Below are positions 14,354 through 32,000 of a stretch of DNA of 64,000 nucleotides, one piece after another (the stretch's first letter is position 1; each line of letters starts with the position of its first letter). The position numbers and the translations under genes were made by a program. This DNA is from an uncultured Gammaproteobacteria bacterium (GTDB taxonomy: Bacteria; Patescibacteriota; Microgenomatia; Levybacterales; UBA12049). The stretch lies in NCBI GenBank assembly GCA_964520695.1, contig CAZFNO010000001.1:8211-72210 (forward strand), written 5' to 3'. The notes beneath the pieces were generated by a model. It saw only the letters and a program-made list of their open reading frames with translations, had not been told where the DNA came from and made no database searches.

Positions 14354-14366
14354 TTTAGCATTAAGT

Positions 14367-16348: not shown

Positions 16349-16385
16349 TTAGTTTATTCCATGATTATATATTTTTCATAAAAAC

Positions 16386-18803
16386 ATGACAAATAATAAT
16401 ATTTATCTATTGCAGTTTACAAAAAAATATCTTGCTGTTATATTTATAAAATTAATGCACAGGATTTATCCTTCTTCATCAAAAGTTATTAAGTTTTTTA
16501 CAAAAAACTATTTCACCATATTAAACTTTCTGATAATTATTTTCTTACTTCTTCTTCCATACTTTTTATTTGAAGGAAAGTTATTTATCGGCGGTGATGA
16601 TACGAGGCTCTTTTATGCATATCCGAAAGATTATTTAATAAATACTCAATTTTTTGCATGGACTAATTTATCCTCTGTCGGCTGGAATTTTTCTTATCAC
16701 TCTTTTCTTCCTTTTGTATCTTTATGGACAATATTGAGCGAGATTATTGAATCAAAATTAATCTTGAGCTATTTAGCGTTTTCATTTTCTTTTATATTAG
16801 GGTTGGTTTTCTTTCAATTACTTGCAAAAGAATTGATTGTAGAAAAAAAGGAAAGATACAAAGCTGAGATTTTATTAGGATCTCTTTTTTATATTTTCTC
16901 ACCAATAATTATAAATAATCATTTCCTAAACCCTTTAATACCTATATGGCTAATCGGATTAATACCTGCAGTTTGCTACCTTTTTTTGAGGTATTTAAAA
17001 ACAGCAAATCTCATGAATGTTCTTATTGCCTCGATACTCACAACCATTTTTTCTTTTGGATCTCATAATACTCCCTGGGCAGGAGGTTTTTTAATTCCTA
17101 TTTTTCTTTCTATTACGATAGGTTCATTCTTGTTTAAAAAAGGTCAAATATGGTTCTTTATAAGAAGGTTTATAATTTTTTTTGGGATTTTAATCCTAAC
17201 TCAATCGTTCTGGCTTTTCGGCTTCTTGATGGCATTTCTGGATTCTTACTCAAGTAGTTTTACCGCAAAAATAGTATCTGATACCCTGACTAATGAATTT
17301 GCTCGATCAGTCTTGGCGACTTCCAGAGGAACTATTATTTATCCACTTTTAAATTTATTTCCAAGACAAATCGCTTTTGACTATAACTGGACTTTAAAAG
17401 AAGTTTACCTGATGTTTTATGACAGAATTTTTTTTATAAATATAATCTTTATACTGATACTTTTTCTCGGTATTTTAAACTTCAAAACTGTAAAAAATTT
17501 ATGGGAGAGAAAGATATTTGTAATTCTTTTATTGGCTTTTTTACTTTCTCTTTACTTTTTTACGGTAAACATAGGACCCCTTCTTGATTTATACATTTTA
17601 CTTGGTAATATTCCCGGATTTATTCTATTTAGAAATCCTTTTGACAAGTTTGCTATGGGTTTTGCACTAATATATTCTCTTCTAATAACGTATTGCCTTG
17701 TTATACTTAGGCGAAAATTTAAACCCGGCAGTAAAAAATATTTAGTGCTCCTATTTTTATTTTCTTTAGCTATTTTTGCCAACTCAATTATTCCCTTAAG
17801 AAGCATAATAGTTTCTCCTCTTTGGACAACAAGTAAAATTTATAAGAATATCAAAATTCCAGATGAGTACTTAGATTTTATGGATAAGATTAAGAACACG
17901 GTTTCTTCTACTAATAACATTTTTAGCGTACCGTATGGAATTTCACTGTATACAGTTATAAAAGATATAGATTCAAATAACGTTTACGTAGGAGTTTCTC
18001 CGGTAATAATTTTTAGCGGTGTAAACGATATCTCAGGCAACCTCTCATTTAATTATGCCTCGGAAGCTAACACTGCTGAGAAAGCAATTGTAAACAGAAA
18101 TTATGAAGTTTTAAATAATATTTTATTTACACATAATATAAACTATGTATTTGTAACAAAAAATATTCCTGAAGAAGTAAAAAAATCTTTTATATTTAAT
18201 CAGGACGTTTTAAAAGCTCAGGATGAAGAATTTATATCCAACATCACAAAAGAAAGAATTGTCAAAAGTTCGGAAGGAAATTACGAGTTATATTCAGCAA
18301 AGAAGAGAAACTTTCTAATCTCATCTGATAATTTGTCATTTAAAAAAATCAGCAGAGTTAAGTATAAAATTTTGATAAAAAACATAAAAGGAAGACAGGA
18401 ACTTCTTTTTAATGACTCATTTCATCCGGGATGGAAATTATATCCAATGCCTGCAGGGACAAGTTTTGAATGCAAAAATCCAAAAGAAATAACTGAAACT
18501 AAAACCTTTGAATGCGATCATGAAATTAATTTTTTTGAGATAAGTGATCTTGAATACATCTGGAAGGATCCTGTTTTTGAAAATACACACGGAATTAAAA
18601 ACGAATTTTCCAATAAATGGGTGATAGATCCTGTTTTTATTAAAAACAATTTTAACAAAGATAATTACAAAATAAATGAAGATGGTTCCGTGGATTTAAA
18701 TCTTGTTTTATATTTCAAACCACAAGTGTATTTTTATATAGGTATGGCGATAAGTATTTTAAGTTTTGTAATTCTCTCAATTATTGTTTTGAAGCGTAAA
18801 TGA
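16386..18803 (+). CDS. Large polytopic membrane glycosyltransferase, GT-C fold with YfhO-like C-terminal domain (paralog B)
   Basis: 'LFIGGDDTRLFYAYP', many TM helices, C-terminal 'FHPGWKLYP'; colinear with 12128..14353. Confidence 0.5.
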   Translation: MTNNNIYLLQFTKKYLAVIFIKLMHRIYPSSSKVIKFFTKNYFTILNFLIIIFLLLLPYFLFEGKLFIGGDDTRLFYAYPKDYLINTQFFAWTNLSSVGWNFSYHSFLPFVSLWTILSEIIESKLILSYLAFSFSFILGLVFFQLLAKELIVEKKERYKAEILLGSLFYIFSPIIINNHFLNPLIPIWLIGLIPAVCYLFLRYLKTANLMNVLIASILTTIFSFGSHNTPWAGGFLIPIFLSITIGSFLFKKGQIWFFIRRFIIFFGILILTQSFWLFGFLMAFLDSYSSSFTAKIVSDTLTNEFARSVLATSRGTIIYPLLNLFPRQIAFDYNWTLKEVYLMFYDRIFFINIIFILILFLGILNFKTVKNLWERKIFVILLLAFLLSLYFFTVNIGPLLDLYILLGNIPGFILFRNPFDKFAMGFALIYSLLITYCLVILRRKFKPGSKKYLVLLFLFSLAIFANSIIPLRSIIVSPLWTTSKIYKNIKIPDEYLDFMDKIKNTVSSTNNIFSVPYGISLYTVIKDIDSNNVYVGVSPVIIFSGVNDISGNLSFNYASEANTAEKAIVNRNYEVLNNILFTHNINYVFVTKNIPEEVKKSFIFNQDVLKAQDEEFISNITKERIVKSSEGNYELYSAKKRNFLISSDNLSFKKISRVKYKILIKNIKGRQELLFNDSFHPGWKLYPMPAGTSFECKNPKEITETKTFECDHEINFFEISDLEYIWKDPVFENTHGIKNEFSNKWVIDPVFIKNNFNKDNYKINEDGSVDLNLVLYFKPQVYFYIGMAISILSFVILSIIVLKRK

Positions 18804-19798
18804 AGATTTATTTTAATAAAAATTATCTAAAAATAGCCTCTTTTATAATTATCCCTACTTTAATTTTATTTTGGGTGGTTACTTCCCTTCTTTTTATAAA
18901 TCGTATAAGTTTTTCTGTAGTAACCTACCAAACGAGAAATTTAGTTGATTCTGATAATTATTCTGAAATCTATAGAGAAAGATCCTATAAGGGGGAATTT
19001 GAAGCAATTGATAATAATTTAGGATTGGTAATTGTTGATTTAGGCAATTACAGAAGACCGGAATCGGCAAATGAGTACGTAATAGTTTTTAGATTTAAGG
19101 AAAAGGGAGATAGTGGGTGGGCAATTCAAAGAGAATATGACTCAGGACTTTTTGATAGTCAAAGTCAATTTTCTTTTGGAATACCTGTGTTGGTGGATTC
19201 TAAAAATAAATATTTTCAATTTGAGATTGCATCAGAAAAAGGAAGCTTGGAAAATCACATTAAAATCAAGAAAAAATCATCATTTATAACAGGATATCAA
19301 TATTCAAAGTCAGAAATTTTAGGAGTAGATTTGAAAGCTTTTAACTTTTTCTATAGTAAATTTTTAGGATTTATTACGGATTTAGAACTATTGACGAAAT
19401 CTTTAATTTATTTAATCCCATTAGCAATATATATATTGGTTTTATTCTTCTTGAATCGCATTTTTCTAAGAGTAAAATACGTTAATATTCCATTTACTGG
19501 TAAATATCTTAAGGTTCTGTTATTGCTAGTGCTTATAAAATTATTGCTGCCACAAGATTTTAAGGTTAGTATGTTTTTTATCTTAGTGGGAGTTTGGACG
19601 GCCATCGTGTATTTTCTAAAACTAAAAAGCAGTGTGTCGTTTTTGTTAAGCTTCACTCTTTTAATTTTATGGATTCTAATTATTCCATTTGATCTTTCAA
19701 ATATTCAAAAGTTGTTGAATGTATCGGTTTACATATTTTTAGCATTCGGAGTCTTTCAGCTGTTATATGAAGAGGTAGGAAGGGTGAGTAAAAAATGA
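18800..19798 (+). CDS. Membrane protein, partner of GT-C paralog B
   Basis: Same architecture as 14367..15392 ('FRFKEKGDSGWAIQREYDSG'); ATGA overlap with the upstream gene. Confidence 0.45.
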   Translation: MKIYFNKNYLKIASFIIIPTLILFWVVTSLLFINRISFSVVTYQTRNLVDSDNYSEIYRERSYKGEFEAIDNNLGLVIVDLGNYRRPESANEYVIVFRFKEKGDSGWAIQREYDSGLFDSQSQFSFGIPVLVDSKNKYFQFEIASEKGSLENHIKIKKKSSFITGYQYSKSEILGVDLKAFNFFYSKFLGFITDLELLTKSLIYLIPLAIYILVLFFLNRIFLRVKYVNIPFTGKYLKVLLLLVLIKLLLPQDFKVSMFFILVGVWTAIVYFLKLKSSVSFLLSFTLLILWILIIPFDLSNIQKLLNVSVYIFLAFGVFQLLYEEVGRVSKK

Positions 19799-20460
19799 GA
19801 GAAAGAGTATTTGTTAAAAAATATAAATATGGATATATTCTTGAGGAAGAAAGTCAGGTGTTTTTTAGAGATTTGTATGAAAGGCTTGGCTTGAGTCGTC
19901 TTTTTTTGAATAAAAAAATTTTGGATGTAGGATGCGGTTTTGGTACAGGAACAATAATTTTTTCAGAATTCGCTAAACTGGTAATAGGAGTCGATATAAT
20001 TGAATACAATGAATGGGAACTTTTTAAAAGTAATAAGATAAAATTTCGGAAAGCAAGCTCTACAATGCTTCCTTTTGATGATAATTCCTTTGACGGAGTT
20101 TATCTAAAGGATTTACTGCATCACATTAAAGGAGCGGATAAGACTCTTAGAGAAATAAAGAGAGTTACTAAGAATAACGGAATTATAGTAATAGTTGAAG
20201 CAAATAGGTATAACCCTGTTTTTTACCCATATGTAACTAAAATAAAAGGACATGATCATTTTACTCAAAAAGAATTCAAGAATTTGATTGAGGAGAATTT
20301 CTCGGATCGAAAATTTATTTATTTGGAAGCTTATCCGCCATTTAGATTTCCCCTAAAATTTTATAAATACATTTTAAAGATTGAAAAATTAGTAAATAAG
20401 ATAGAGTTTCTTAAGCCAATATTTTGCTACAATGTGGCCATTATAAAAAATTCTAAATAG
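19795..20460 (+). CDS. Class I SAM-dependent methyltransferase
   Basis: 'ILDVGCGFGTGT' motif I, 'FDGVYLKDLLHHI'. Confidence 0.7.
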   Translation: MRERVFVKKYKYGYILEEESQVFFRDLYERLGLSRLFLNKKILDVGCGFGTGTIIFSEFAKLVIGVDIIEYNEWELFKSNKIKFRKASSTMLPFDDNSFDGVYLKDLLHHIKGADKTLREIKRVTKNNGIIVIVEANRYNPVFYPYVTKIKGHDHFTQKEFKNLIEENFSDRKFIYLEAYPPFRFPLKFYKYILKIEKLVNKIEFLKPIFCYNVAIIKNSK

Positions 20461-20462
20461 AA

Positions 20463-22322
20463 TCATTTTTTATGAAAGAGTTTCCTTTTTTTAAATATGA
20501 TAATAATCCAACTTCCAAGAGAAACACCGGACATTAATAATCCATAATGGAAAGGCGCTGAAGAGTAAATAAACTCGTATTTATGCTCTCCCGGCAATGA
20601 TTCAACTTCCAAAAATCTTCCCTTTAAAATTTCAATTCTTTCATCATCAACAAACGCCTTCCAGCCTGGATAATTAGTTTCCAATAAAATTAGATGACTC
20701 TTTTTGTTTGAATTTGCAATAACTGTTATTTTATTTGGCGTGAAATTAACTTTCTGCGAGTTTTTGTTTATTCTTGCAAACGGAAGCGCTCTTAAATCTC
20801 TATAAAGAAAAATATCATCTCTGAATTTTCTTAGCATTATAAGATTAGAACTTTTAGTACTAATATTTGAAATCAAAAAACCAGGTTTTATATCGTTATA
20901 TGGATTAAGTCCTTTGAAGTTGTATTTTTCTCCCAAACTTTCTTTAAGAAAAAGTCCATAGTTTGATTGAAGCAGAAGAATTTTGTTCGAATAAGCTTTA
21001 TCTTGAGGAATTTCGCCTTGGGACTGTTTATGAACAGTATAATAATTATCTTCATTATTATCTCGTATCCAATCTAAGACAGCACGGTATTCTTTATTAA
21101 TTTCTTCAAATTTTCTTGTAGAAAGAACATTTTGCGAAAATGTATAAACAATAAGGAGGTTTATCAACAGAAGTCCTATTGCAAATTTTTTATTTTTCCA
21201 TTTATCAATAAATACTCCCAAGGATACTAAAATAATTATTCCCCAATACATTAATATTCTACTTGGAACATGAAAGTATTGTAGGGGTTCAATAATTGAG
21301 ATTAGGTAATGGATTGGATTTAGAGGAGAGTCTGGAGTAGAGAGCAATATAAATAACACTGTAAGTATAATAAGAATTGAGGTTTTTTTGTTGTGTTTGT
21401 CAAAAAATGCTACTTTAAAAATAAAGAATAATCCAAGAATTGACAAAGGGCCGATGAAAGCCAAACTTTCCCACCATCCAAAACTTTCTTTAATTAAAGT
21501 ATCGGGAAACAAAAACTCAAATGGTAAGAATAAATTGAAAATTATGCTATAAATATCGAGTCCCCCTACAAACGGTTCCTTTATCTTTGAAATATGATCT
21601 TGGAGCTGTATCATGGGTAGAATTTTGATTGAGGAAAACGCAAGAAATAAGACAACCGCAAGTGCTAAATGAAAAGAAACTTTTCTATCTTTAAATAAAT
21701 AATATAGAAAAACTGCTCCTGCTAAATATAAAGAAAATAAAGCATTATAAATATCTCCTGAAAAAAAGATTAGAGATAGAGTTATTGCTGTTACTCCAGA
21801 CCATAAAATATTTTTAGTCTGTGCTGTTTTTACTAAGCAAAAAATAAATAATGGAAGAAATGCAAAAGATACCACCTTTTCTAAATGACCCGCAATAATT
21901 CTTGAAGCTAAATAAGCTCCACTTGCATAAGTTATTGAGATTATTACAGAGACCGTATTTGAAATTTTATAAAGCCTTGCAAGTAAAAACATAGAAATGC
22001 AGGCTATAAATACTGAAATAAAATACATTGCTTTTATTGCCAATTGATAAGGAAGAAGTAGTATAGGGATACTGATAATCGGGTTATATATGCCGTAAAG
22101 CGGATCTGCAACGCTTGGAATTCCTTGATTTATAAAAGGATTCCACTGCGGAAAAATACCATACTTGAGTATGGATTCTTTAAAGTGCAGAAGTGGTACA
22201 ATATTTCCATTGAGATCATTGTTAACAATAATATTGGGATCAAGAATAAATTGGATTAAAATAATAACACTTGAAATAAAAAAAAGGATATAAATGCTCG
22301 GCTTCATGAGTGAAACTACCAT
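20463..22322 (-). CDS. YfhO-like GT-C membrane glycosyltransferase
   Basis: ~13 TM helices, C-terminal 'LETNYPGWKAFVDDERIE' resembling the YfhO-family tail. Confidence 0.5.
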   Translation of the reverse strand: MVVSLMKPSIYILFFISSVIILIQFILDPNIIVNNDLNGNIVPLLHFKESILKYGIFPQWNPFINQGIPSVADPLYGIYNPIISIPILLLPYQLAIKAMYFISVFIACISMFLLARLYKISNTVSVIISITYASGAYLASRIIAGHLEKVVSFAFLPLFIFCLVKTAQTKNILWSGVTAITLSLIFFSGDIYNALFSLYLAGAVFLYYLFKDRKVSFHLALAVVLFLAFSSIKILPMIQLQDHISKIKEPFVGGLDIYSIIFNLFLPFEFLFPDTLIKESFGWWESLAFIGPLSILGLFFIFKVAFFDKHNKKTSILIILTVLFILLSTPDSPLNPIHYLISIIEPLQYFHVPSRILMYWGIIILVSLGVFIDKWKNKKFAIGLLLINLLIVYTFSQNVLSTRKFEEINKEYRAVLDWIRDNNEDNYYTVHKQSQGEIPQDKAYSNKILLLQSNYGLFLKESLGEKYNFKGLNPYNDIKPGFLISNISTKSSNLIMLRKFRDDIFLYRDLRALPFARINKNSQKVNFTPNKITVIANSNKKSHLILLETNYPGWKAFVDDERIEILKGRFLEVESLPGEHKYEFIYSSAPFHYGLLMSGVSLGSWIIIIFKKRKLFHKK

Positions 22323-22344
22323 TGTATTATAGCATTCGATAATT

Positions 22345-24405
22345 ATGAAATTATTTATTCGAAATCTCCCCTTGATAATGTTCTTACTTCTTGTGCTTTG
22401 GGTTTTTAAATCCTGGTTTTTGTCTCCAACTATTTCAGCAGGGGATTTTTGGTATTACTTTAGGTCAATGTTTGATAACTATCACCTTTATCCTTATGCA
22501 TGGTATACAGCTGGTATTTCAAATGGCATGGGATGGCAAGGTTTTGCCTATCAGAATGGCATGATTATATCTGCTGCCGCTGTTGGTTTTGCAAAACTTT
22601 TTAATTTAAGCTGGGAAAATTCATCAAGATTTATTTTTTATATACCATTTATATTTTTATCCTTCACATCATCTGCGTTTTTTATTAAAAAAGTCTTTCC
22701 CAAGAATAAGTTTTGGATTCTTTCTCCAATTATTTTTTCACTAAACACCTATGTTCTTATGACTATAGGAGGAGGCCAATTGCCAACCGCACTTTCCTAC
22801 GCCTTTATGCCGTTTACAATATTCTCTTTTATGAAACTTGCTGAAAAGGTAAGCTCAAAAAAAGCGGAAATTATTCAATATATAATTCTTTGCTCATTAC
22901 TCCTTGCTGTGCAAACGTTACTCGACTTGCGAATTGCATTTATAACTTCTATTGCAGTTTTAATTTATTTAGTATTTGAATTTTGGGATAAAGGTTTGAA
23001 AATCGGATTGAAAACTTTAATTTTCTACTCATTCTCTTTTATAATTCTGGCTCTCATTAATTCCTATTGGATTATTCCGGTTATCTTTTTTGGAATAAAT
23101 CCTATCGAACAGCTTGGAATCGCGTATAGCTCTTCAGGAATTGTTGAGTTCTTAGGTTTTGCAAGGTTTGAGAATTCTATCTCACTTCTTCATCCATACT
23201 GGCCTGAAAATATTTTTGGAAAAGTTGGGTTTATGAGGTGGGAGTTTTTGTTACTTCCAATAATAGCTTTCTCATCACTTTTATTTATCGGAAAAGACAG
23301 AAAAGAAACCAAATATATTTTATTTTTTGCGGTAATTGGGCTTTTAGGCATTTTTCTTGGAAAAGGAGCTAGTGAGCCTTTGGGAAATCTATATATTTGG
23401 GTGTTTGATAATATCCCCGGTTTTCAGCTTTTTCGCGATTCATTCAAATGGTACACGCTGATTATTATTTCTTACAGCATCCTAATTCCTTTTACTGCTT
23501 GGAATGTTTATAAATGGATAGAAAAATATAAACAATTTTCAATTCTTAATTTTAAATTTTCAATCAAATCTAAATATTTTAATTTTCAAAACGTATTTGC
23601 GGTTTTAGTTTTTGTTTACTTATTGTTTTTGATTCGGCCGGCAATACTGGGACAGATTGGGGGGACTTTTCAAGTTAGAGATGTACCCAAGTCATACATT
23701 CAATTAGACAATTTTTTATCTCAGGATGAAAGTTTTTTTAGGACTTTATGGATACCCAATACTATGCTTTTTGGGCACTACACAAATAATCATCCTCAAA
23801 TTTCCGCAAGAGATTATTTTAAGGATTATAATTTAGACTCTCTTTCGGCAACTGTTGCATCAGCCTCATCGCAGGACATACTCGATCTAGCCTCGGTAAA
23901 GTACGTAATTATTCCGGAAGACACTGAGTCTCAAATTTATTTAACGGACAGAAAATATGATGAGAGTAAATATCAATTTATTGTTGGTTCACTAGAGAAA
24001 GCTCAGTGGCTAGAGAAGATTGACCAGTTCGGGAAAGTTGTTGTTTACAAAGCTCCAAACTACAAAGATCATTTCTGGTGTGAATGTGATGCAAAAATAA
24101 GTTATGAATTTATAAATCCAACAAAATATATCGTAAAAATTAATAATGCAGAAAAAGGAGACAGATTGATTTTTTCAGAGAGCTTTGATGAAAAATGGGT
24201 TGCAAAAAAAGAAAATTTTGAGGTAAATTCTGAAGTATACGAAGGCAAATTTAACAGTTTCAGGTTGCCTGAGGGTGATTATGGGCTGGAAATTTATTAT
24301 TCTCCTCAAGATTTGGTTGATTTAGGAGTAAAAATAAGCGTTTTAACCCTGTTTACTACAATCATAATTCTTGCTTCCAGTTTGTTAATGAGGCGTAAAA
24401 AATGA
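22345..24405 (+). CDS. YfhO-like GT-C membrane glycosyltransferase
   Basis: Polytopic; 'GDFWYY' loop after TM1; C-terminal 'DEKWVAKKENFEV..GDYGLEIYY' plus a final TM as in YfhO proteins. Confidence 0.5.
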   Translation: MKLFIRNLPLIMFLLLVLWVFKSWFLSPTISAGDFWYYFRSMFDNYHLYPYAWYTAGISNGMGWQGFAYQNGMIISAAAVGFAKLFNLSWENSSRFIFYIPFIFLSFTSSAFFIKKVFPKNKFWILSPIIFSLNTYVLMTIGGGQLPTALSYAFMPFTIFSFMKLAEKVSSKKAEIIQYIILCSLLLAVQTLLDLRIAFITSIAVLIYLVFEFWDKGLKIGLKTLIFYSFSFIILALINSYWIIPVIFFGINPIEQLGIAYSSSGIVEFLGFARFENSISLLHPYWPENIFGKVGFMRWEFLLLPIIAFSSLLFIGKDRKETKYILFFAVIGLLGIFLGKGASEPLGNLYIWVFDNIPGFQLFRDSFKWYTLIIISYSILIPFTAWNVYKWIEKYKQFSILNFKFSIKSKYFNFQNVFAVLVFVYLLFLIRPAILGQIGGTFQVRDVPKSYIQLDNFLSQDESFFRTLWIPNTMLFGHYTNNHPQISARDYFKDYNLDSLSATVASASSQDILDLASVKYVIIPEDTESQIYLTDRKYDESKYQFIVGSLEKAQWLEKIDQFGKVVVYKAPNYKDHFWCECDAKISYEFINPTKYIVKINNAEKGDRLIFSESFDEKWVAKKENFEVNSEVYEGKFNSFRLPEGDYGLEIYYSPQDLVDLGVKISVLTLFTTIIILASSLLMRRKK

Positions 24406-24449
24406 TAAAATCACGTTGGATTTAAGTATTAAGACATAAGAGTTATCTT

Positions 24450-24476
24450 AATTCATAAATCATAAATCTTAAATCT
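24450..24476 (+). promoter_or_regulatory. Conserved 27-nt upstream element, copy 2 (AATTCATAAATCATAAATCTTAAATCT)
   Basis: Ends 7 nt before the ATG of the GtrB-like gene. Confidence 0.5.
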
Positions 24477-24483
24477 CTTAGCT

Positions 24484-25410
24484 ATGCTGAGTTTTGTTGT
24501 TCCGGTATTTGATGAAGAAGAGAGCCTTGGAGCTTTTTACAAAGAGCTAAAGAAACATGCAGAGGAGCTGGACTCTTCTCATGAAATAATTTTCATTGAT
24601 GATGGTTCCAGAGACAAAACTCTCGATTTGCTTAAAAATTTAGAAAAAAAAGACCCAAAAGTTAGAGTTTACTCTTTTAGAAGAAATCATGGTAAAGCAG
24701 AAGCGCTCACTTTTGGATTTCAAAAAACAAAAGGCGATTTGATAGTGACTTTGGATGCAGATCTTCAGGATAAGCCGTCGGAGATTAAAAAACTAATTGA
24801 AAAGCAAAAAGAGTATTTTGATGTGGTTTCCGGATGGAGAAAAAAACGAAAAGATTCTTTTGCTAAGGTTATTTTCTCTAAATCTTTTAATTTTGTAGCC
24901 CGAATTCTTTGGGGAATAAAGCTTCATGATTATAACTGCGGGCTAAAGATTTATACAAAAGATGTTGCAAAGGAGCTTAATCTTTATGGCGGAATGCATA
25001 GATTTATACCCCTTTTGGCATCAGATGCAGGGTTTAGGGTAACAGAAGTCGCCGTAGAGCACGATGTAAGACGCTATGGTGTGTCAAAGTACAGTGCATG
25101 GAAAGTTTTGACTCAAATGCCTGATATGATGTCTATGTTTTTTCTTTCCAAATTCGGGAAAAGACCACTTCATCTATTTGGTTTTGTAGGATTATTTTTA
25201 TTTCTCGTTGGAGTTCTAATTTCTTTATATCTCTCAATTGACTGGTTTTTGGGAGCGCCTATAGGGGGAAGGCCCTTATTTTTCCTGGGAATACTTTTAA
25301 TACTTGTTGGCGTTCAGATCTCACTAACAGGACTTATCGCAGATCTTATTCTTAATGTTGCTAATAGAAATCAATCGAATTCTATAAGCCTTAGATATTC
25401 ATCGAATTAG
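24484..25410 (+). CDS. Polyprenol-phosphate sugar synthase (GtrB/CsbB/DPM1-like GT2 with C-terminal TM pair)
   Basis: 'SFVVPVFDEEESL', 'IFIDDGSRD', 'LDADLQD'; two C-terminal TM helices. Confidence 0.8.
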   Translation: MLSFVVPVFDEEESLGAFYKELKKHAEELDSSHEIIFIDDGSRDKTLDLLKNLEKKDPKVRVYSFRRNHGKAEALTFGFQKTKGDLIVTLDADLQDKPSEIKKLIEKQKEYFDVVSGWRKKRKDSFAKVIFSKSFNFVARILWGIKLHDYNCGLKIYTKDVAKELNLYGGMHRFIPLLASDAGFRVTEVAVEHDVRRYGVSKYSAWKVLTQMPDMMSMFFLSKFGKRPLHLFGFVGLFLFLVGVLISLYLSIDWFLGAPIGGRPLFFLGILLILVGVQISLTGLIADLILNVANRNQSNSISLRYSSN

Positions 25411-25453
25411 TTATAAAGTATATTGCTATGTAGCACTGTACTTTAAGTCGAAA

Positions 25454-25672
25454 ATGAAGTTTCAAGATATTTTATTTATTATAGTTTTAATTCCTCTTTT
25501 GTACAAAAGAAATCCAAAACTTTTTGTCTGGGCAGGTTTAATTTCTCTTATTCTTTCAATGCCACTGTTTTACTTTTGGATATTCTTTACCGCCCAGCGT
25601 TTAGTTATTTATGCCTTTATATTATTCGCCACGGCAGTGGTTTTAAATTTAATAGTGCTCAGAAGGGGATAG
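25454..25672 (+). CDS. Small hydrophobic membrane protein (2-3 TM)
   Basis: 72-aa ORF, almost entirely hydrophobic; sits downstream of the GtrB-like gene. Confidence 0.3.
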   Translation: MKFQDILFIIVLIPLLYKRNPKLFVWAGLISLILSMPLFYFWIFFTAQRLVIYAFILFATAVVLNLIVLRRG

Positions 25673-25796
25673 GCTATCAAATAGATTTCCCTTATCACAC
25701 CTTGACCAATTTTTATTTTAAAACTATAACACTACGTCGTATCAAAGTTTTTTGAAAATACCGTGAGGGTTATACTTTTAGTTAAATTAGTAGAAG

Positions 25797-26396
25797 TTGA
25801 ATGCTGGAGGTCAAAAATTATACAATTGTAGGGTGAGGATTGGGATTGATATTAGTCAGCTTGCATTTGGGAGTGAAGGTGTGGCAAATTACCTTAGAAA
25901 TCTGGTTGAAAGCCTGGCGCTTGCTGATAAAAAAAACGATTACATCCTGTTTTACTCATCGCTTAGAAGACCTGTGCCTAGTCTTAAAATTAATAATCCA
26001 AAATTTAAAATCAAAGCTTATAAATTTCCTCCTACTTTTCTTGAAAGGCTTTGGAATAAATTCCACATTTTTCCTATTGAGAACTTTGTGGGTAGCGTTG
26101 ACTGGTTTATTACGTCTGACTGGACAGAACCTCCGGTCAAAAAGGCAAAGAAGGCAACAATTATTTACGATCTAATTGTCTATAAATATCCCGAAGAGAC
26201 CCATAATCTAGTGGAAATCAATTATTCTGGACTAAAAATTTCTCCAAATATTGTCGCGTCCCAGCAGGGAAAACTTAAATGGGTAAAAAAAGAGTCCGAT
26301 ATGATTTTTACAATATCCGAAGCTAGCAAGAAAGATATTGTTGATATTCTAGGTATAGATAGCTCAAAAATTAGGGTGATATATCCGGGAGTTTGA
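25797..26396 (+). pseudogene. Truncated GT4 glycosyltransferase (N-terminal Rossmann domain only)
   Basis: 'RIGIDISQLAFGSEG..KKNDYILF' matches N-termini of 26435 and 35825. Stops at 'KIRVIYPGV', exactly where the C-terminal domain begins in the paralogs. No ATG start, only TTG 25797 or GTG 25833. Confidence 0.5.
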
Positions 26397-26434
26397 AACT
26401 AAAACTATTATCTATTTATTAATTACTTTTTAAA

Positions 26435-27634
26435 ATGAATATTGGAATTAATGGGTTTGAGGCGGTGGTGCCACGTTTTGGATTTGATAAAAAAACTAAT
26501 CTTCCAATTCGAGTAGGAAGCGCAGAGTATGCATATCAGCTTTTGGCAGCTTTAAATAAAATTGATAAAAAAAATAATTATTTTGTTTATTTACCTGTAG
26601 ATCCAACTCCCGATATGCCTAAAGAGACAGAAAGCTGGGGATATATTGTTTTTTCCTCAAAAAAACTATGGACGCTTGCAGGCCTTTCAAAAAAGCTTGC
26701 AGAGGATAAAAATCGTCTTGATGTTTTTTTCTCTCCAACCCATTATCTTCCTATAACTAACAAAAAATCTGTAATCTCAATTCTGGACGTTTCTTACCTT
26801 AAGTTTCCGAAACTATTCAAAACAAAAGACCTTTATAAGCTCAAGATTTGGGGAAAGTTGTCGATTAAGAAAGCAAAAAAGATATTAACAATAAGCGAGG
26901 CTTCCAAGAGTGATATAATTAAATATTACGGATTAAAATCGGATAAGATAGAAGTTGTATATCCGGGAATTAAAAAAGCGTCAAGCGTTAAGGGGAAAGG
27001 GTTAAGTATGGAAGAATTAAAAAAGAAATTTGGAATAAAAGGAGACTATATACTTTTCGTCGGGACGCTTCAGCCGAGAAAAAATATTGTTCGTCTGATC
27101 GAGGCGTTTAGCATGGTCGTTCAGAAGTATTCTCCGAGCGATCCGCCAGCTGGCGGAGAATCGGGAAATCAGTTCTCGACAAGCTCGAACAATAATGAAT
27201 TACAGCTGGTTATAGTAGGGAAAAAAGGGTGGCAATATGAGCAGATTTTAGACGCTCCTTCAAAATTTAATGTTTCAGACCGCGTTTTGTTTCTTGAAAG
27301 TGTTTCGGACGGGGATCTGCCTGTGCTTTACAAACATGCAAAAATGTTTATCTTACCAAGTCTTTATGAAGGATTCGGTCTCCCGGTACTTGAGGCAATG
27401 CAATACGGATGTCCTGTTATAACAAGCAATGTTTCATCACTTCCTGAGGCAGGCGGAGATGCGGCTTTGTATGTAGATCCTGAAAATGTGAATGACATAA
27501 AAGAAAAAATGGGAAGACTTTTAAATGATGAAAAATTGAGAAAAGACTTGATTGAGAAAGGAAAACATCAAATTAAGAAGTTTTCTTGGGAAAAGTCAGC
27601 AAGACAAACTTTGAGAAATCTTGAAGAAATTTAG
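26435..27634 (+). CDS. Family-4 glycosyltransferase carrying an ~25-aa low-complexity insertion
   Basis: '[18 protein letters not shown]' EX7E motif; insertion '[25 protein letters not shown]' encoded by a GC-rich patch. Confidence 0.8.
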
Positions 27635-27661
27635 CTTTCCACCCTTGGGGTGGACTAGTGT

Positions 27662-28216
27662 ATGATAAAAAAAATAATAAGACGAATAAACACAATTATA
27701 ATTGAACTTGAAAACTGGATAATGCACGTGTCAGGATATGTTCCATCACACCACTTCAGACGGTTAATTTATAGACTGGGTGGCATGAAGATTGGAAGAG
27801 GTTCAACTATTCATACAGGATTAAGACTTTACAATGCAAAGAATATAAAAATCGGTCAGGACACAATTGTTGGTGAAGGAGCGGTTTTGGACGGGAGGGA
27901 TAGTTTGGTAATCGGTGATCATGTGGATATTGCAACGGATGTTATGATTTATAACTCAGAACATGATGTTTATGATTCGAGTTTCAAAGCAATATCAGCA
28001 CCAGTTGAGATTTCTGATTATGTTTTTATTGGGCCTAGGGCGATAATTCTTCCCGGAGTCAAGATAGGACGCGGCGCTGTTATCGGGGCAGGCGCAGTTG
28101 TAACAAAAGATGTTGAGGCATTCAAAATTGTCGGAGGAGTTCCTGCTAAAGAAATAGGGGAGCGACAAAACAAAAATCCCAACTATAAATTAGGACGTGC
28201 CGCTTGGTTTAGGTAA
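27662..28216 (+). CDS. Hexapeptide-repeat (LbH) acetyltransferase
   Basis: 'IGPRAIILPGVKIGRGAVIGAGAVVTKDV' hexapeptide repeats. Confidence 0.75.
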   Translation: MIKKIIRRINTIIIELENWIMHVSGYVPSHHFRRLIYRLGGMKIGRGSTIHTGLRLYNAKNIKIGQDTIVGEGAVLDGRDSLVIGDHVDIATDVMIYNSEHDVYDSSFKAISAPVEISDYVFIGPRAIILPGVKIGRGAVIGAGAVVTKDVEAFKIVGGVPAKEIGERQNKNPNYKLGRAAWFR

Positions 28217-28221
28217 ATTTT

Positions 28222-29088
28222 ATGCCAAAGGTTACAATTATTATTCTCACCTATAATTCAGCAGGTTTTATAAAAAAATTATTAGAAAGTATAAAAAGAC
28301 AGCATAAAGACCTTTCTGGTTTGGAGATAATTATCGTCGACAACGATTCTAACGACAAAACAATTGAAGAAGTCTTAAATGCAAAACTTCAAACTTCAGA
28401 CTTTAAATTAATAAGGAATAAAGAAAATGTTGGGTTTGCGAAGGGGATAAATATTGGAGCGGAAAAAGCAACAGGTGATTTTTTACTTTTTATAAATCCT
28501 GACACAGAATTTGAGAAAGGAGATATATGGAAAATGACTGAAGTTTTTGCAATTCATAAGGAGGTGGGAATAGTCGGCGGAAAACTTTTAAAGAATAACG
28601 GAAAAGTAGAGAAATCAGCCGGGAATTTTTTTGGTTTTTTTGAGACCATTATTATGGCATTTGGATTGGACGAGGTATTTGGTGTTCGAACAAGTCCTGA
28701 GAAACTAACAAAAGTAGGTTTTGTCAGCGGCGGTTTTCTGATGATTAAAAAAGACTTATTCGAAAAGCTTGGGGGTTTTGATGAAAACTTTTTTATGTAT
28801 ATTGAGGACATGGATCTTTGCAAAAGAGCAAAAGAGGAAGGTTTTAGCACTTACTTTACGCCTGATGTAGTTTTGGTACACGCATCACATGGTTCATCGA
28901 ATAGATCGTTTGCTATTGAAAATATTTATAAAAGCATAATTTATTATCACGAAAAACATTCAAACTCTATTGTTTATTTTTTGGTAAAAATGATTCTTAA
29001 GCTTAAAGCGTTTGTTCTTGTAATAATTGGCAGAATTATCAATAATAAATATCTAGTCAATTCGTATAGTAAGGCACTTAGTGTATGA
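28222..29088 (+). CDS. Family-2 glycosyltransferase
   Basis: 'KVTIIILTYNSAGFIKKLLESIKRQ', 'IIVDNDSND', 'NPDTE', 'EDMDLC'. Confidence 0.8.
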   Translation: MPKVTIIILTYNSAGFIKKLLESIKRQHKDLSGLEIIIVDNDSNDKTIEEVLNAKLQTSDFKLIRNKENVGFAKGINIGAEKATGDFLLFINPDTEFEKGDIWKMTEVFAIHKEVGIVGGKLLKNNGKVEKSAGNFFGFFETIIMAFGLDEVFGVRTSPEKLTKVGFVSGGFLMIKKDLFEKLGGFDENFFMYIEDMDLCKRAKEEGFSTYFTPDVVLVHASHGSSNRSFAIENIYKSIIYYHEKHSNSIVYFLVKMILKLKAFVLVIIGRIINNKYLVNSYSKALSV

Positions 29089-32000
29089 AAAAAATTTTCT
29101 CATGGGTTTGGGACAATATATTATTTCTTGAGTCACTTTTTCTTTTGGCTTTCATACCCCTTTATCCAAAAATCCCGGTTTTAGATATTCAGAACACCTG
29201 GGTTTATGTGAGAATAGAGGATTTTATTGTTTCTTTTATTCTTCTTTCATGGCTTACTCTTTTGGTAAAAAAGAAAATTACTCTAAAAACTCCTCTAACT
29301 TTTCCGGTTCTCATTTTTTGGATTGTTGGATCAGTTGCTACTCTTCATGGAGTACTTATTGTCTTTCCAAACTTACCCAATGTTTTTCCAAATGTAGCAT
29401 TTTTAAGTCTTCTTCGTCATATTGAATATGTAAGCCTCTTTTTTATCGGCTACCACGGACTGCGCAATAAGAAACTCCTTCCATACGTGGTGGGGGCGCT
29501 TACAGTAATTCTTCTTGCTGTAATAGCATACGGATTTGGACAAAAATATTTAGGCTTTCCGGCATTCCTGACTGGAAATGAAGAATTTGCAAAAGGAATT
29601 CCCATAAGACTTTCCGAGTTATCAAGAGTCCCTTCAACATTTGCAGGTCATTATGATTTGGCTGCTTATCTTGTTTTGATAGTTCCCATAATGCTAAGCC
29701 TTTTTTTTGGTCTAAAAAACATTTTGTTTAGATTATTTTTTCTTGGTGTAACTCTTCTTGGAACTGCCCTTATGTTTATGACAGTATCGCGCGTTTCTTT
29801 TGTTGCCCTATTTGTCTCGTTTTTTGCAGTTTTATTTTTTATGAGACGAAAAATATTTTTTGTGGCGCTTCCTCTCGCTTTTATTTTTGGAACAATTCTT
29901 CTTTCCTATCAGCCCTCGCTTCTTGATAGATTTAAAAGCACAGTTTCTGAAGTGGATGTAATAGTTGATTCGAGAACAGGGGAATCAGTGGGTCATGTCA
30001 AATTTGTTGAGAAGGAGTATCTTTCGGATAAGCTTATTCTTCAAAGGAGAGTAAAGGACAGCGTTGAACTTGCAAATGTCATGGCCACAATTGATCAGGA
30101 TGAGCAGTATTCGCTTAATTCCCCTGTATTTCCTTTTAGACTGGTTCCTGAGGAAGTGCCTTTGGTTACGGCTGTTAATATCTCAACAGGGGAGAGTTTG
30201 CCTTCGGGAACAGGATATATTAACCTGTCACTCTCTCCAGTCACGAAAAGACTTAACAATTTCTTTTATGAACTTCCCAAAGAAGAAGGATCAACCCTGT
30301 CAGCGCAAGTCATTGTGTTTCATGGACCGTTTATTGTTAAGCGGGCAGCAGCGTATGATCTATCTTTTACCACCAGATTTCAGGGAGAATGGCCCAATGC
30401 TATAAATGCTTTCAAAAAAAATATCTTTCTTGGAAGCGGATACGGGGGAGTTGGCCTTGCAATAGATAATAATTATTTGCGAATTTTAGGTGAAACAGGA
30501 ATCCTGGGGTTTAGTGCATTTTTCTCGCTATTCTTAATTCTTGCAATATATATTAGAAAAATTTATCCAAGTGTTGATTCGTCTCTTGCCAAAAGCTTCA
30601 TTATTGGGTTTACCGCGGGTCTTTTTGGTCTTTTTCTTAATGCGACTTTGATTGATATATTTGAAGCATCCAAAATCGCATTTGTTTTGTGGCTTCTTGT
30701 GGGAATTGTCTTTGCGCTTCTGATCCAGTATCAGAAAAAGACAATAGATATTCTTTCAGAACTGAGAAGTTCAATCTCGTCTCCATTTGTAATAATCGCA
30801 ATTTTGGCAGTCTTAACAGGTGTTATATTTTCTCCGGCTATAAATAACTTTTTTGTAGGAGACGATTTCACCTGGTTTCGCTGGGCGGCTGAATGTGGTG
30901 CAAATTGTCAGCCGGCAAGAGAGATTCTTAATTATTTTACAAGTTCAGACGGCTTTTTCTACAGGCCCGGAGCAAAAACCTATTTCCTCCTTATGTATAA
31001 AACTTTCTGGCTTAATCAAAGCGTTTATCACATGGTTTCTATCCTTCTCCATTTTGTTGTGGCAAGTCTTATGTTCTTACTTTCCTGGAAGATTTTTAAA
31101 AATGTTTTCTTAGCGGCTGCTGCTTCTTTTGTTTTCCTAATCTTAAGCGGTGCAACAGAGGCTGTGTTTTGGATATCAACAACAGGATATTTATTTAATA
31201 CTGTCTTTGGTCTTTTGGGAATATTGCTGTTTATACTTTGGGATGATAGAAGAAAGCTCTATTTTCTTGGGGGGTCAATATTTTCAATATCTTTGTCTTT
31301 TCTTTTCCACGAGCTTGGGATTGTTTATCCTTTTCTTGTGCTTGTTTACGCCCTATTATACGGAAAAGATACAAATACTGGGAATTTTTTCAGAAGATGG
31401 GATCTTGCAATCGTTTTTTCTACAATTCCTATTTATCTTGTAATCAGATTTTTGTCCGGGAGCCATTGGTTCTCAGGAGACTATTCCTATAATCTATTAA
31501 AGCTTCCGCTTAATGTTATTGGAAACAGTTTGGGATATTTGGTTTTGACTCTTTTGGGACCTATTACTCTTCCCGTTTACACACTACTCCGAGAAACACT
31601 TAGAGAAAATTTGATAGTTGCAGTAACAATTATTCCTGTTGCCGCGTTTGTTTTGTTTATTGTTTACAAATACAGTATTAAAATATTTGATCTTAGAGAG
31701 AAAAAAATAGTTTTATTTGGAATTTTATTTTTTGCAGTTTCTCTTATTCCTTTTCTTGGTCTTGGGAACATTTCATCAAGATATAGTTATTTGGCATCGT
31801 TTGGAATTGTTATTATTTTAATAGTTTTTGCCAAAAAGTTTTTTGCGTATCTTGCGCAGATGGATAGAAAAATTGCTTCACTGGTTATAAGTCTTTTTGT
31901 AATAATTTTTGTGCTTTTTCATGTCATATCGCTCCAGCAGTCCTATTTTAATTGGAATGAGGCGGGAACCAAAACTAAAAAATTCTTTTTATCAATAGAT

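What the first reader, a model, noticed from the sequence alone, without database searches (positions are those of the whole stretch)
20463..25672. Divergent YfhO-like pair with a 22-nt intergenic region, plus a GtrB/CsbB-like enzyme and a small membrane protein: a complete lipid-carrier glycosylation module
The two YfhO-like genes start back-to-back only 22 nt apart. The palindromic TATTATA in that spacer can act as a -10 box in both directions. Directly downstream are a GtrB/CsbB-type C55-P-sugar synthase and a 72-aa hydrophobic protein. In Firmicutes, CsbB + GtcA/GtrA + YfhO glycosylate teichoic acids. Finding the same logic with four YfhO paralogs in a probably wall-teichoic-acid-free CPR cell suggests a different acceptor, such as S-layer, pilin or lipoglycan.
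Basis: inference. Interest (0 to 1): 0.5.

Follow-up and report, generated by a model that had tools for sequence, protein, structure and literature searches.

The report
Carrier-lipid sugar-decoration genes in a Patescibacteria glycan island
These four genes encode a membrane sugar-decoration system of a known general type, made of very divergent enzymes plus a new 72-residue partner protein, and they sit inside a 40-kb cell-envelope glycan island of an uncultured ultra-small bacterium.

Summary
The four ORFs are real and lie at the stated coordinates. The 308-aa protein is a clear GtrB/ArnC-type polyprenyl-phosphate glycosyltransferase (PP-GT).

Neither large protein (619 aa, "F619"; 686 aa, "F686") hits the Pfam YfhO model. 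Profile-profile comparison (E 1e-51 and 1e-28, full length) and confident AlphaFold models show both are remote YfhO/AftD-like GT-C glycosyltransferases.

The 72-aa protein ("S72") is a conserved, uncharacterised small membrane protein. It matches neither GtrA nor GacJ/DUF2304. It is tightly linked to the PP-GT: 34 of 37 PP-GT genes have it within 1.5 kb, often overlapping.

The widely conserved unit is F686 + PP-GT + S72. F619 is a rare, lineage-specific extra gene, always on the opposite strand.

The 22-nt spacer is probably 37 nt, because F619 homologues start at Met6. TATTATA is not a palindrome. Its complement is a perfect extended -10 (TGCTATAAT) facing F619, conserved in 6 of 6 comparable loci. 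A shared bidirectional promoter is plausible but unproven.

No flippase was identified, so "complete module" is not shown. The likeliest acceptor is the glycopolymer made by the surrounding island. This is a new variant of a known kind, of moderate interest.

The parts
20463..22322 (-). F619: a 619-aa (probably 614-aa, starting at Met6 = ATG 22307-22305) divergent YfhO-superfamily GT-C glycosyltransferase. It is a lineage-specific accessory gene and the only opposite-strand gene in this part of the island.
   Evidence: There is no Pfam hit. hhalign of the family against PF09586 proteins gives 100% probability, E 1e-51, over 578 columns. The AlphaFold2 model has pLDDT 89.4 and pTM 0.90. Foldseek hits are STT3, PglB, AftD, AftA and ArnT. 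Asp36, the PQWNP motif and the C-terminal NYPGW motif are invariant. The start codon assignment rests. The gene is present in 2 of 75 F686-anchored loci.
22326..22334 (-). Extended -10 promoter element TGCTATAAT facing F619. Its plus-strand complement contains TATTAT, a possible -10 for the 686-aa gene.
   Evidence: The block (T)TGATGYTATAATACAA is conserved in 6 of 6 loci with this divergent arrangement. It lies 16-25 nt upstream of the consensus Met and 11-15 nt from the start of the divergent gene. TGNTATAAT occurs only 6 times in 128 kb.
22323..22344 (.). Intergenic spacer between the longest ORFs (22 nt). The functional spacer is probably 22308-22344 (37 nt).
22345..24405 (+). F686: a 686-aa GT-C glycosyltransferase of a large Patescibacteria family with YfhO/AftD-like architecture. 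It is the conserved GT-C partner of the PP-GT and S72.
   Evidence: It has 463 homologues, almost none with a Pfam domain, and only a weak DUF6541 match. hhalign against YfhO proteins gives 99.8% probability, E 1e-28, over 648 columns; against F619 it gives 97.6%. The AlphaFold2 model has pLDDT 84.2. Foldseek hits are AftD (4e-8), STT3, AftA, DPY19 and PglB. Asp34 after TM1 is invariant.
24484..25410 (+). PP-GT: a 308-aa GT2 polyprenyl-phosphate glycosyltransferase of the GtrB/ArnC/CsbB/PgfS type. It would make a carrier-lipid-monophosphate sugar on the cytoplasmic face of the membrane.
   Evidence: PF00535 matches at 2e-32. There are full-length matches to solved ArnC (8e-42) and GtrB sll0501 (6e-31), and a match to DPMS (4e-15). 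NCBIfam matches ArnC (3e-50), PgfS (2e-42) and AglJ (1e-22), all below equivalog cut-offs. Two C-terminal TM segments are predicted.
25454..25672 (+). S72: a 72-aa conserved small membrane protein of a new, unannotated family, with motifs KxQD and PLFxxWIFFTAQRL. It is a partner of the PP-GT; its biochemical role is unknown.
   Evidence: The family has 92 clusters at 50% identity, almost all 70-80 aa long; the alignment is. No Pfam, NCBIfam or PDB match was found. S72 lies within 1.5 kb of 34 of 37 PP-GT genes, and 17 of the 25 PP-GT->S72 gaps are between -4 and +14 nt. It stays with the PP-GT in 9 of 10 loci where the PP-GT and F686 are more than 2.5 kb apart.
12128..19798 (+). Context: two further YfhO-like GT-C paralogues (741 aa at 12128-14353; 805 aa at 16386-18803). 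Each is followed by a 330-370-aa polytopic protein of unknown family. A GDSL esterase lies between the two units on the minus strand.
   Evidence: BLASTP against F686 gives 3e-5 and 5e-6. hhalign against YfhO proteins gives 95% and 90% over the N-terminal core, including the GGDD loop. TM counts are and the esterase.
25797..32291 (+). Context: a conserved downstream block made of a GT4 N-domain-only gene, a GT4, a hexapeptide acyltransferase, a GT2 and a 1068-aa protein with about 22 TM segments and weak Wzy_C similarity.
   Evidence: The block follows S72 in all 10 loci of the close sample and in many of the 75 metagenome loci.

Best explanation
The region is part of a roughly 40-kb envelope-glycan island (window about 1033-41866) in a Microgenomates-type Patescibacteria genome.

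Within the island, F686 (GT-C), the PP-GT (GT2) and S72 form a conserved multi-component transmembrane glycosylation unit. The proposed mechanism has three steps:
1. The PP-GT loads a monosaccharide from a nucleotide sugar onto polyprenyl phosphate at the cytoplasmic face.
2. The lipid-linked sugar is translocated across the membrane.
3. F686 transfers the sugar onto an acceptor outside the membrane, using the conserved Asp in its first external loop. In this lineage the extra paralogue F619 would do the same.

The acceptor is most likely the glycopolymer assembled by the surrounding island.

S72 is a new small three-segment membrane protein that works with the PP-GT. It could be an activating or anchoring subunit, functionally like GacJ, or the missing translocator.

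F619 is a lineage-specific addition. It is transcribed from its own conserved extended -10 promoter in the roughly 37-nt divergent spacer. Because F619 interrupts the operon, F686, the PP-GT and S72 need a promoter there too, possibly the same AT-rich element read on the other strand.

Shown here: gene models, homology and fold of all four proteins, catalytic motifs, gene linkage and promoter-element conservation. Inferred: the direction of sugar flow, the acceptor, the role of S72 and bidirectionality.
For: PP-GT identity rests.

GT-C identity and YfhO-like architecture of F619 and F686 rest.

Linkage: in 75 non-duplicate metagenome loci anchored on F686, 34 of 37 PP-GT genes have S72 within 1.5 kb and 25 of 52 S72 genes directly follow F686. 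S72 follows the PP-GT in 9 of 10 loci where the PP-GT and F686 are separated.

Island content: Bac_transf initiating transferase, RmlD, epimerases/dehydratases, GT2 and GT4 enzymes, methyl- and acetyltransferases, PMT_2-type GT-Cs and a Wzy_C-like 22-TM protein.

Promoter. In a relative that lacks F619, the F686 homologue overlaps the upstream methyltransferase gene by 4 nt, which indicates an operon.

Precedent for GT-A + small membrane protein + GT-C systems acting on wall polymers: PMC5836110, PMC7389260, PMC8035078 and bioRxiv 10.1101/180810.
Against: - There is no biochemical evidence; the sugar, lipid and acceptor are unknown.
- No recognised flippase (GtrA, Wzx or ABC) was found among the ORFs scanned in the island.
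- At least 10 loci keep F686 and S72 without a PP-GT nearby. The PP-GT is therefore either encoded elsewhere in those genomes or is not obligatory for F686.
- The best fold matches include oligosaccharyltransferases (STT3, PglB), so a lipid-PP-oligosaccharide donor is not excluded.
- The plus-strand -10 (TATTAT) would leave only a 5-8-nt leader for F686, and no transcript data exist.
Confidence: 0.6

Rival explanations
1. One reading: a complete CsbB-GtcA-YfhO-type three-component module in which S72 is a GtrA-family flippase and the two YfhO-like genes share one palindromic bidirectional -10.
For: A PP-GT, GT-Cs and a small membrane protein are adjacent. S72 is strongly linked to both the PP-GT and F686, as expected for a component acting between them. 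The AT-rich element is conserved and reads TATTAT on the F686 strand in 5 of 6 loci.
Against: No GtrA (PF04138) match was found for S72 or for 20 relatives at E<=10, and there is no NCBIfam hit. S72 is 72 aa against about 120-140 aa and 3-4 TM for GtrA-type proteins (PMC8035078). TATTATA is not a palindrome. F619 is absent from 73 of 75 F686-anchored loci, so the pair is not the conserved unit. Conservation of the element is fully explained by the F619 promoter alone.
Confidence: 0.2
2. S72 is a functional analogue of GacJ/Rv3632: a small three-helix subunit that binds the PP-GT and raises its affinity for the carrier lipid. Translocation would then be done by an unlinked or unknown protein.
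For: GacJ is a small 3-TM protein encoded immediately downstream of gacI. [quoted passage not shown] S72 has about 3 hydrophobic segments. It is usually immediately downstream of the PP-GT, abutting or overlapping it, and it tracks the PP-GT when F686 is distant.
Against: No DUF2304 match was found in 21 family members. S72 is 72 aa against 113 aa for GacJ. No PP-GT-S72 fusions appear among 92 family clusters. S72 persists next to F686 in loci with no PP-GT nearby.
Confidence: 0.35
3. F686 and/or F619 are not monosaccharide side-chain transferases. Instead they act on the island's lipid-PP-linked oligosaccharide, as an oligosaccharyltransferase, ligase or polymerase. The PP-GT would then be an optional add-on.
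For: F686 is present in all loci whereas a PP-GT is missing from some. Fold matches include STT3 and PglB. The island has an initiating Bac_transf enzyme but no recognised ligase or oligosaccharyltransferase among the scanned ORFs.
Against: The nearest sequence relatives are YfhO proteins, and the best structural match of F686 is AftD; both use polyprenyl-monophosphate sugars (PMC8035078). The PP-GT is adjacent to F686 in about half of the loci that have enough sequence. A Wzy_C-like 22-TM protein is already present to act as polymerase or ligase.
Confidence: 0.15
4. The adjacency is only shared membership of a large glycan island, and the four genes have no special functional coupling.
For: The island holds more than 30 glycan genes in one orientation. 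F619 is variable in presence and position.
Against: The F686-PP-GT-S72 linkage is kept across relatives with only 36-45% protein identity, with overlapping stop and start codons. S72 moves together with the PP-GT.
Confidence: 0.1

Closest known systems
CsbB-GtcA-YfhO (Bacillus, Staphylococcus, Listeria) teichoic-acid glycosylation and other multi-component transmembrane glycosylation systems (PMC5836110, PMC7389260, PMC8035078)
   Same: A GT2 polyprenyl-phosphate sugar synthase with a C-terminal membrane hairpin. A large GT-C enzyme with an Asp in the first external loop, a C-terminal extracytoplasmic beta-domain and a final TM helix. A small membrane protein encoded alongside.
   Different: The GT-Cs fall below the Pfam YfhO threshold and form Patescibacteria-specific families. 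The small protein is not GtrA-family and is about half the size. The context is a rhamnose/GT4/GT2 polysaccharide island, and no teichoic-acid genes were seen among the ORFs scanned in this window. Several GT-C paralogues lie in one island with a single PP-GT.
GacI-GacJ-GacK-GacL of Streptococcus pyogenes (GlcNAc side chain on the polyrhamnose wall carbohydrate; bioRxiv 10.1101/180810) and PpgS-Rv3632 of Mycobacterium tuberculosis
   Same: A PP-GT is followed immediately by a small three-helix membrane protein. A GT-C transfers the sugar to a wall polysaccharide encoded by the same cluster. The island contains an RmlD gene.
   Different: S72 shows no DUF2304 similarity and is 72 aa against 113 aa. 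No Wzx-type GacK equivalent was found. GacL is a PMT_2-type GT-C, whereas F686 and F619 are YfhO/AftD-like.
GtrA-GtrB-GtrC serotype-conversion modules of Shigella and Salmonella, and the solved GtrB (sll0501) and ArnC structures
   Same: The PP-GT aligns over its full length with GtrB and ArnC, including the catalytic motifs and the TM hairpin. A variable, type-specific GT-C (here F619) added to a shared PP-GT resembles the variable GtrC.
   Different: There is no GtrA homologue. The genes are chromosomal within a glycan island, with no phage context. The sugar specificity is unknown, since the NCBIfam ArnC, PgfS and AglJ equivalog cut-offs are not reached.
Mycobacterial AftD (PDB 6W98) and the N-terminal GT-C_AftD domain
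   Same: AftD is the best structural match of F686 (Foldseek E 4e-8). Proteins of more than 1000 aa lie near F686 in relatives. In the two loci with gene annotation (L018, L019) they carry PF11847, and the F686 HMM detects such large paralogues in 13 metagenome loci.
   Different: F686 is half the size of AftD and lacks AftD's multiple carbohydrate-binding modules and acyl-carrier-protein partner. Sequence similarity is detectable only weakly (6 of 39 family members, best E 4e-4).

Membership tests
YfhO (Pfam PF09586) | Matches the family HMM at or above the gathering score | tested here: not met
   No PF09586 hit for the 619-, 686-, 805- or 741-aa proteins, even at E<=10. Only 1 of 22 F619-family and 2 of 39 F686-family members give weak hits.
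YfhO (Pfam PF09586) | Full-length homology to bona fide YfhO proteins | tested here: met
   hhalign against 9 proteins that all match PF09586: F619 family 100% probability, E 1e-51, 578 columns; F686 family 99.8%, E 1e-28, 648 columns. The 805- and 741-aa proteins reach only 90-95% over the N-terminal core.
YfhO (Pfam PF09586) | GT-C fold: polytopic N-terminal domain, conserved Asp in the first external loop, C-terminal extracytoplasmic beta-domain and terminal TM helix | tested here: met
   AlphaFold2 models have pLDDT 89 and 84. Foldseek matches are to STT3, PglB, AftD, AftA, DPY19, ALG12 and (E<=0.001 for F619 only) ArnT. Invariant D36 (F619) and D34 (F686) align to the invariant Asp of the YfhO set.
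YfhO (Pfam PF09586) | Transfers sugar from C55-P-sugar to teichoic acid | not testable with these tools
   This needs biochemistry or genetics.
GtrB/ArnC/CsbB/DPM1-type polyprenyl-phosphate glycosyltransferase (GT2) | GT-A catalytic domain with DDGS, the DxD(LQ) motif and the catalytic Asp | tested here: met
   PF00535 at 2e-32. D39-D40-G-S, D91-A-D93-L-Q95 and D149 are aligned with ArnC and/or GtrB. DPMS matches at 4e-15.
GtrB/ArnC/CsbB/DPM1-type polyprenyl-phosphate glycosyltransferase (GT2) | C-terminal two-helix membrane hairpin and full-length alignment to solved members | tested here: met
   Residues 2-294 align to ArnC (8e-42) and 2-291 to GtrB (6e-31). TM segments are predicted at 227-260 and 261-293, unique among the GT2s of the window.
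GtrB/ArnC/CsbB/DPM1-type polyprenyl-phosphate glycosyltransferase (GT2) | Assignment to a specific equivalog (sugar specificity) | tested here: not met
   ArnC scores 171 bits against a cut-off of 529, PgfS 145 against 500 and AglJ 81 against 325.
GtrA/GtcA flippase family (PF04138) | HMM match | tested here: not met
   No PF04138 hit for S72 or for 20 relatives at E<=10. No NCBIfam hit.
GtrA/GtcA flippase family (PF04138) | Small protein with 3-4 TM helices, about 120-140 aa | tested here: not met
   S72 is 72 aa, and family members are almost all 70-80 aa. About 3 short hydrophobic segments are predicted.
GtrA/GtcA flippase family (PF04138) | Genetic linkage to a GtrB-type enzyme and a GT-C | tested here: met
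   34 of 37 PP-GT genes have S72 within 1.5 kb, and 25 of 52 S72 genes directly follow F686.
GacJ/Rv3632 (DUF2304, PF10066) | HMM match | tested here: not met
   No DUF2304 hit among 21 members at E<=10.
GacJ/Rv3632 (DUF2304, PF10066) | Small roughly 3-TM protein encoded immediately downstream of the PP-GT; sometimes fused to it | tested here: inconclusive
   Position and coupling are met: 25 loci have the order PP-GT->S72, and 17 of those gaps are between -4 and +14 nt. No PP-GT fusion appears among 92 clusters; the only fusion is to an unrelated 650-aa membrane part.
GacJ/Rv3632 (DUF2304, PF10066) | Forms a complex with the PP-GT and stimulates it | not testable with these tools
   This needs co-expression and kinetics.
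Bidirectional (face-to-face) promoter | Conserved -10 element at a working distance from each start codon | tested here: inconclusive
   Towards F619 the feature is met: TGYTATAAT lies 16-25 nt before the consensus Met in 6 of 6 loci. Towards F686 there is only TATTAT or CATTAT, 12-15 nt before the ATG, and its conservation cannot be separated from that of the opposite strand. No transcript data exist.

The most novel reading that the evidence does not exclude
S72 defines a new Patescibacteria-specific family of 72-residue, three-segment membrane proteins. In this reading it is the third component of transmembrane glycosylation, replacing GtrA/Wzx as the translocator of polyprenyl-phosphate sugars or acting as an obligatory subunit bridging the PP-GT and the GT-C. 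The island would then build a wall glycopolymer independent of teichoic acid, decorated outside the membrane by up to six or seven GT-C enzymes.
Probability: 0.2. Interest if true: 0.6.

Novelty: new variant of a known kind. Interest (0 to 1): 0.38.

Why it matters
Almost nothing is known experimentally about the cell-envelope glycans of Patescibacteria, although their surface mediates an epibiotic, host-dependent lifestyle.

This locus shows that the GT-A / small membrane protein / GT-C logic used by Firmicutes to decorate wall polymers is widespread in Microgenomates-type genomes. Here it uses GT-C families that current domain models miss and a small partner protein unrelated to GtrA or GacJ.

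That gives three concrete annotation targets: the F619, F686 and S72 families. It also gives a small, tractable test system, namely the PP-GT with or without S72 expressed in E. coli membranes.

The conserved extended -10 in a genome that almost lacks Shine-Dalgarno sequences is also a usable promoter example for these organisms.

Tried and rejected
- Direct Pfam and NCBIfam scans of the large proteins and of S72 found no YfhO, GtrA or DUF2304 match.
- Sequence searches of the F619, F686 and S72 sequences and profiles against PDB chains found nothing.
- An Rfam scan of 20000-26600 at E<=1 found nothing.
- The generic promoter/terminator scan was not above shuffled sequence.
- The AFDB50 fold library was unavailable.
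- An interim conclusion from the 10 closest loci was that S72 belongs with the downstream GT4 block and that the PP-GT is an occasional insert. The larger 75-locus sample overturned this by showing strong PP-GT-S72 coupling.
- Recent horizontal origin of F619 is not indicated by base composition: 30% GC, similar to its neighbours at about 27-33%.
- The 721-aa S72 fusion protein P0205 was checked as a possible partner clue. Its C-terminal part matches neither F686 nor any Pfam family nor any ORF in the collected loci.
- A literature search returned no listed paper that mentions YfhO together with Patescibacteria.

Full report
**1. Observation**

- 20463-22322 (-), 619 aa, here called F619
- 22345-24405 (+), 686 aa, here called F686
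- 24484-25410 (+), 308 aa
- 25454-25672 (+), 72 aa, here called S72

Between the longest ORFs lie 22 nt, TGTATTATAGCATTCGATAATT. TATTATA is not a palindrome; its reverse complement is TATAATA. On the minus strand the spacer reads AATTATCGAATGCTATAATACA, which contains a perfect extended -10, TGCTATAAT.

**2. The GT2 enzyme**

The 308-aa protein matches PF00535 at 2e-32. It aligns over its whole length with solved ArnC (8e-42) and GtrB/sll0501 (6e-31), and over its catalytic domain with DPMS (4e-15). The motifs D39-D40-G-S and D91-A-D93-L-Q95 and the residue D149 are conserved.

It is the only GT2 in the window with the two-helix C-terminal hairpin. NCBIfam ranks ArnC, PgfS and AglJ first, but all are far below equivalog cut-offs. 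The enzyme class is therefore firm and the sugar is unknown.

**3. The two large proteins**

None of the 619-, 686-, 805- or 741-aa proteins hits Pfam YfhO, even at E<=10, and none has an NCBIfam name. Deeper analysis rescues a weaker form of the claim.

- F619 has about 24 close relatives without Pfam assignment. Beyond them come distant hits that carry PF09586, and all nine of those were verified against Pfam.
- Profile-profile comparison of the F619 family with those YfhO proteins gives 100% probability, E 1e-51, over 578 columns. It covers the invariant first-loop Asp (D36), the P-x-W-N-P motif and the C-terminal YPGW...G-x-H domain.
- F686 belongs to a large family (463 hits) named only from Levybacteria or "Patescibacteria group" MAGs. 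Its profile matches the YfhO set at 99.8%, E 1e-28, over 648 columns, and matches F619 at 97.6%.
- The AlphaFold2 models are confident: pLDDT 89.4 with pTM 0.90, and pLDDT 84.2 with pTM 0.84.
- Both models hit only GT-C enzymes at significant E-values. F619 matches STT3, PglB, AftD, AftA, ALG12, DPY19 and ArnT. F686 matches AftD best (4e-8).
- No solved structure is detectable by sequence.
- The 805- and 741-aa proteins are weaker relatives. BLASTP against F686 gives 5e-6 and 3e-5, and hhalign against YfhO gives 90-95% over the N-terminal core including a GGDD loop.

"YfhO-like" is therefore right as an architecture and superfamily label, but not as Pfam family membership.

**4. The small protein**

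S72 is a real gene. Twenty close homologues turned up in the word-indexed search, and 92 clusters at 50% identity in the exhaustive HMM search, nearly all 70-80 aa long. Invariant residues include K2, Q4 and D5 and the motif PLFxxWIFFTAQRL.

S72 has about three hydrophobic segments. Neither S72 nor 20 relatives match GtrA (PF04138), DUF2304 (GacJ) or anything else credible in Pfam at E<=10. NCBIfam and PDB also give nothing.

**5. What travels with what**

The closest loci first suggested that the PP-GT and F619 were occasional inserts and that S72 belonged to the downstream block of GT4 N-domain gene, GT4 and hexapeptide transferase. A larger and less biased sample corrected this. It comprises 80 metagenome loci anchored on the F686 family, 75 of them non-duplicate.

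- 37 PP-GT genes were found, and 34 have S72 within 1.5 kb.
- In 25 loci the order is PP-GT then S72, and in 9 the reverse.
- 17 of the 25 PP-GT-to-S72 gaps are between -4 and +14 nt, which suggests translational coupling.
- 25 of 52 S72 genes directly follow F686.
- Where the PP-GT lies more than 2.5 kb from any F686-family gene, S72 stays with the PP-GT in 9 of 10 loci.
- At least 10 loci keep F686 and S72 with no PP-GT nearby.
- F619 occurs in only 2 of the 75 loci.

Wherever F619 lies within this cluster it is on the opposite strand. It is divergent from F686 in the window, L003, L005, L006, L008 and L021, and divergent from the PP-GT in L004, L009 and L013. It is absent in L002, where the F686 homologue overlaps the upstream methyltransferase gene by 4 nt. 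The one exception in position is L072, where the F619-family gene lies about 6 kb upstream of F686 on the same strand.

The conserved unit is therefore F686 + PP-GT + S72. The "divergent YfhO-like pair" is a lineage-specific elaboration.

**6. The spacer**

In all six loci with the F619/F686 divergent arrangement, the spacer holds the block (T)TGATGYTATAATACAA. It lies 11-15 nt from the F686 start codon and 16-25 nt from the family-consensus Met of F619.

In the window the upstream in-frame ATG (22322) is only 3 nt past TATAAT. That is too close to lie on a transcript started from this promoter. The 12 nearest homologues all begin at the position of Met6. The true start is therefore most likely ATG 22307-22305, and the spacer is about 37 nt.

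TGNTATAAT occurs only six times in 128 kb, whereas the loose promoter scan is uninformative. On the F686 strand the same block reads TGTATTATA in 5 of 6 loci. TATTAT keeps the critical A at position 2 and T at position 6 of the hexamer, but it would give only a 5-8-nt leader. Its conservation also cannot be separated from that of the other strand.

The genome almost lacks Shine-Dalgarno sequences. It has several arrangements of a -10 followed by 6-7 nt and then ATG, which resemble leaderless starts. Short leaders are therefore not disqualifying. Bidirectionality is plausible, and some promoter for F686 is logically required once F619 interrupts the operon, but it is unproven. No Rfam family matches the region.

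**7. Context**

Window positions about 1033-41866 form one glycan island. It contains:
- PMT_2-type GT-Cs of 439 and 490 aa
- RmlD and three epimerases/dehydratases
- several GT2 and GT4 enzymes
- methyltransferases and hexapeptide acyltransferases
- a GDSL esterase
- the four YfhO-like GT-Cs
- a 1068-aa protein with about 22 TM segments and weak Wzy_C similarity
- a nucleotidyltransferase
- a Bac_transf initiating enzyme
- a DUF4012 protein

RecO, a class II aminoacyl-tRNA synthetase and the start of the dcw cluster (MraW and a PBP) follow. No GtrA, Wzx or ABC exporter was seen among the scanned ORFs.

**8. Mechanism and comparison**

[quoted passage not shown] The PP-GT makes a polyprenyl-P-sugar, which is translocated, and the GT-C(s) transfer the sugar to a polymer outside the membrane.

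The island context, and the beta-rich C-terminal domains seen in the models in an architecture shared with YfhO/AftD-type enzymes, point to the island's own glycopolymer as acceptor.

In position and size class S72 behaves most like GacJ, though it has no sequence similarity to it. A translocator role is equally open, because S72 is linked to both enzymes and no flippase is present. A rival reading, in which F686 acts on a lipid-PP-oligosaccharide, is kept at low probability.

**9. Verdict**

This is a known kind of system built from divergent, unmodelled GT-C families plus a new small partner protein, so it counts as a new variant of a known kind. Interest is moderate and centres on S72 and on how widespread the F686 + PP-GT + S72 unit is in Patescibacteria.

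Noticed in passing
window 12128-15392 and 16386-19798: A duplicated two-gene unit: a YfhO-like GT-C (741 or 805 aa) followed by a 368- or 332-aa polytopic membrane protein with 4-6 TM segments. The two smaller proteins have no Pfam or NCBIfam match and are related to each other. Genes like the 332-aa one end within 150 nt upstream of F686 in at least 9 of 58 metagenome loci.
   Followed up: partly
window 25797-26396 and 26435-27634: A 199-aa ORF carrying only part of the GT4 N-terminal domain sits immediately upstream of a full-length GT4. This split arrangement (about 180 aa plus about 370 aa) is conserved in all 10 closely examined loci and in many of the metagenome loci, so it is not a pseudogene.
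   Followed up: partly
window 41868, 49338, 61056, 62391 and genome-wide: Only 4 of 39 gene starts examined have a Shine-Dalgarno-like motif. At 49338, 61056 and 62391 a TATAAT (often TGnTATAAT) lies 6-7 nt before the ATG, and at 41868 it directly abuts the ATG. This suggests frequent leaderless or near-leaderless mRNAs.
   Followed up: partly
protein P0205 (from the exhaustive search): A 721-aa protein has an S72 domain at residues 1-67 fused to a roughly 650-aa polytopic membrane part. That part matches neither F686, nor any Pfam family, nor any ORF in the collected loci. It could be a real fusion or a gene-calling artefact.
   Followed up: partly
window 29085-32291: A 1068-aa protein with about 22 predicted TM segments has only a weak Wzy_C match (E 0.004). 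It is conserved downstream of the GT4-hexapeptide-GT2 block in relatives and is a candidate polymerase or ligase of the island.
   Followed up: no
F686 residues 273-297 (window about 23161-23235): This is the most densely invariant stretch of the F686 family (E276, L281, H283, P284, P287, N289, F291, G292, F296). It is also the only segment modelled with pLDDT below 50. It is probably a flexible external loop that orders on substrate binding, as seen in other GT-C enzymes.
   Followed up: no
L003 1859-2074 and 3678-3893; L019 5818-6183: Small GIY-YIG ORFs (71 aa, two copies) are inserted within the homologous cluster of one relative. A bAvd/23S_rRNA_IVP-type ORF lies between the two GT4 genes in another. 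Both are signs of mobile-element traffic in these islands.
   Followed up: no
window 20460-20463: The methyltransferase gene and F619 converge with only 2 nt between their stop codons, and they overlap in several relatives. This leaves no room for terminators, so convergent transcripts must overlap.
   Followed up: no
L006-L009, L011, L013, L017 (record titles): Several MAG records that carry these Patescibacteria-type loci are titled 'uncultured Gammaproteobacteria bacterium'. This looks like a mislabel in the source records.
   Followed up: no
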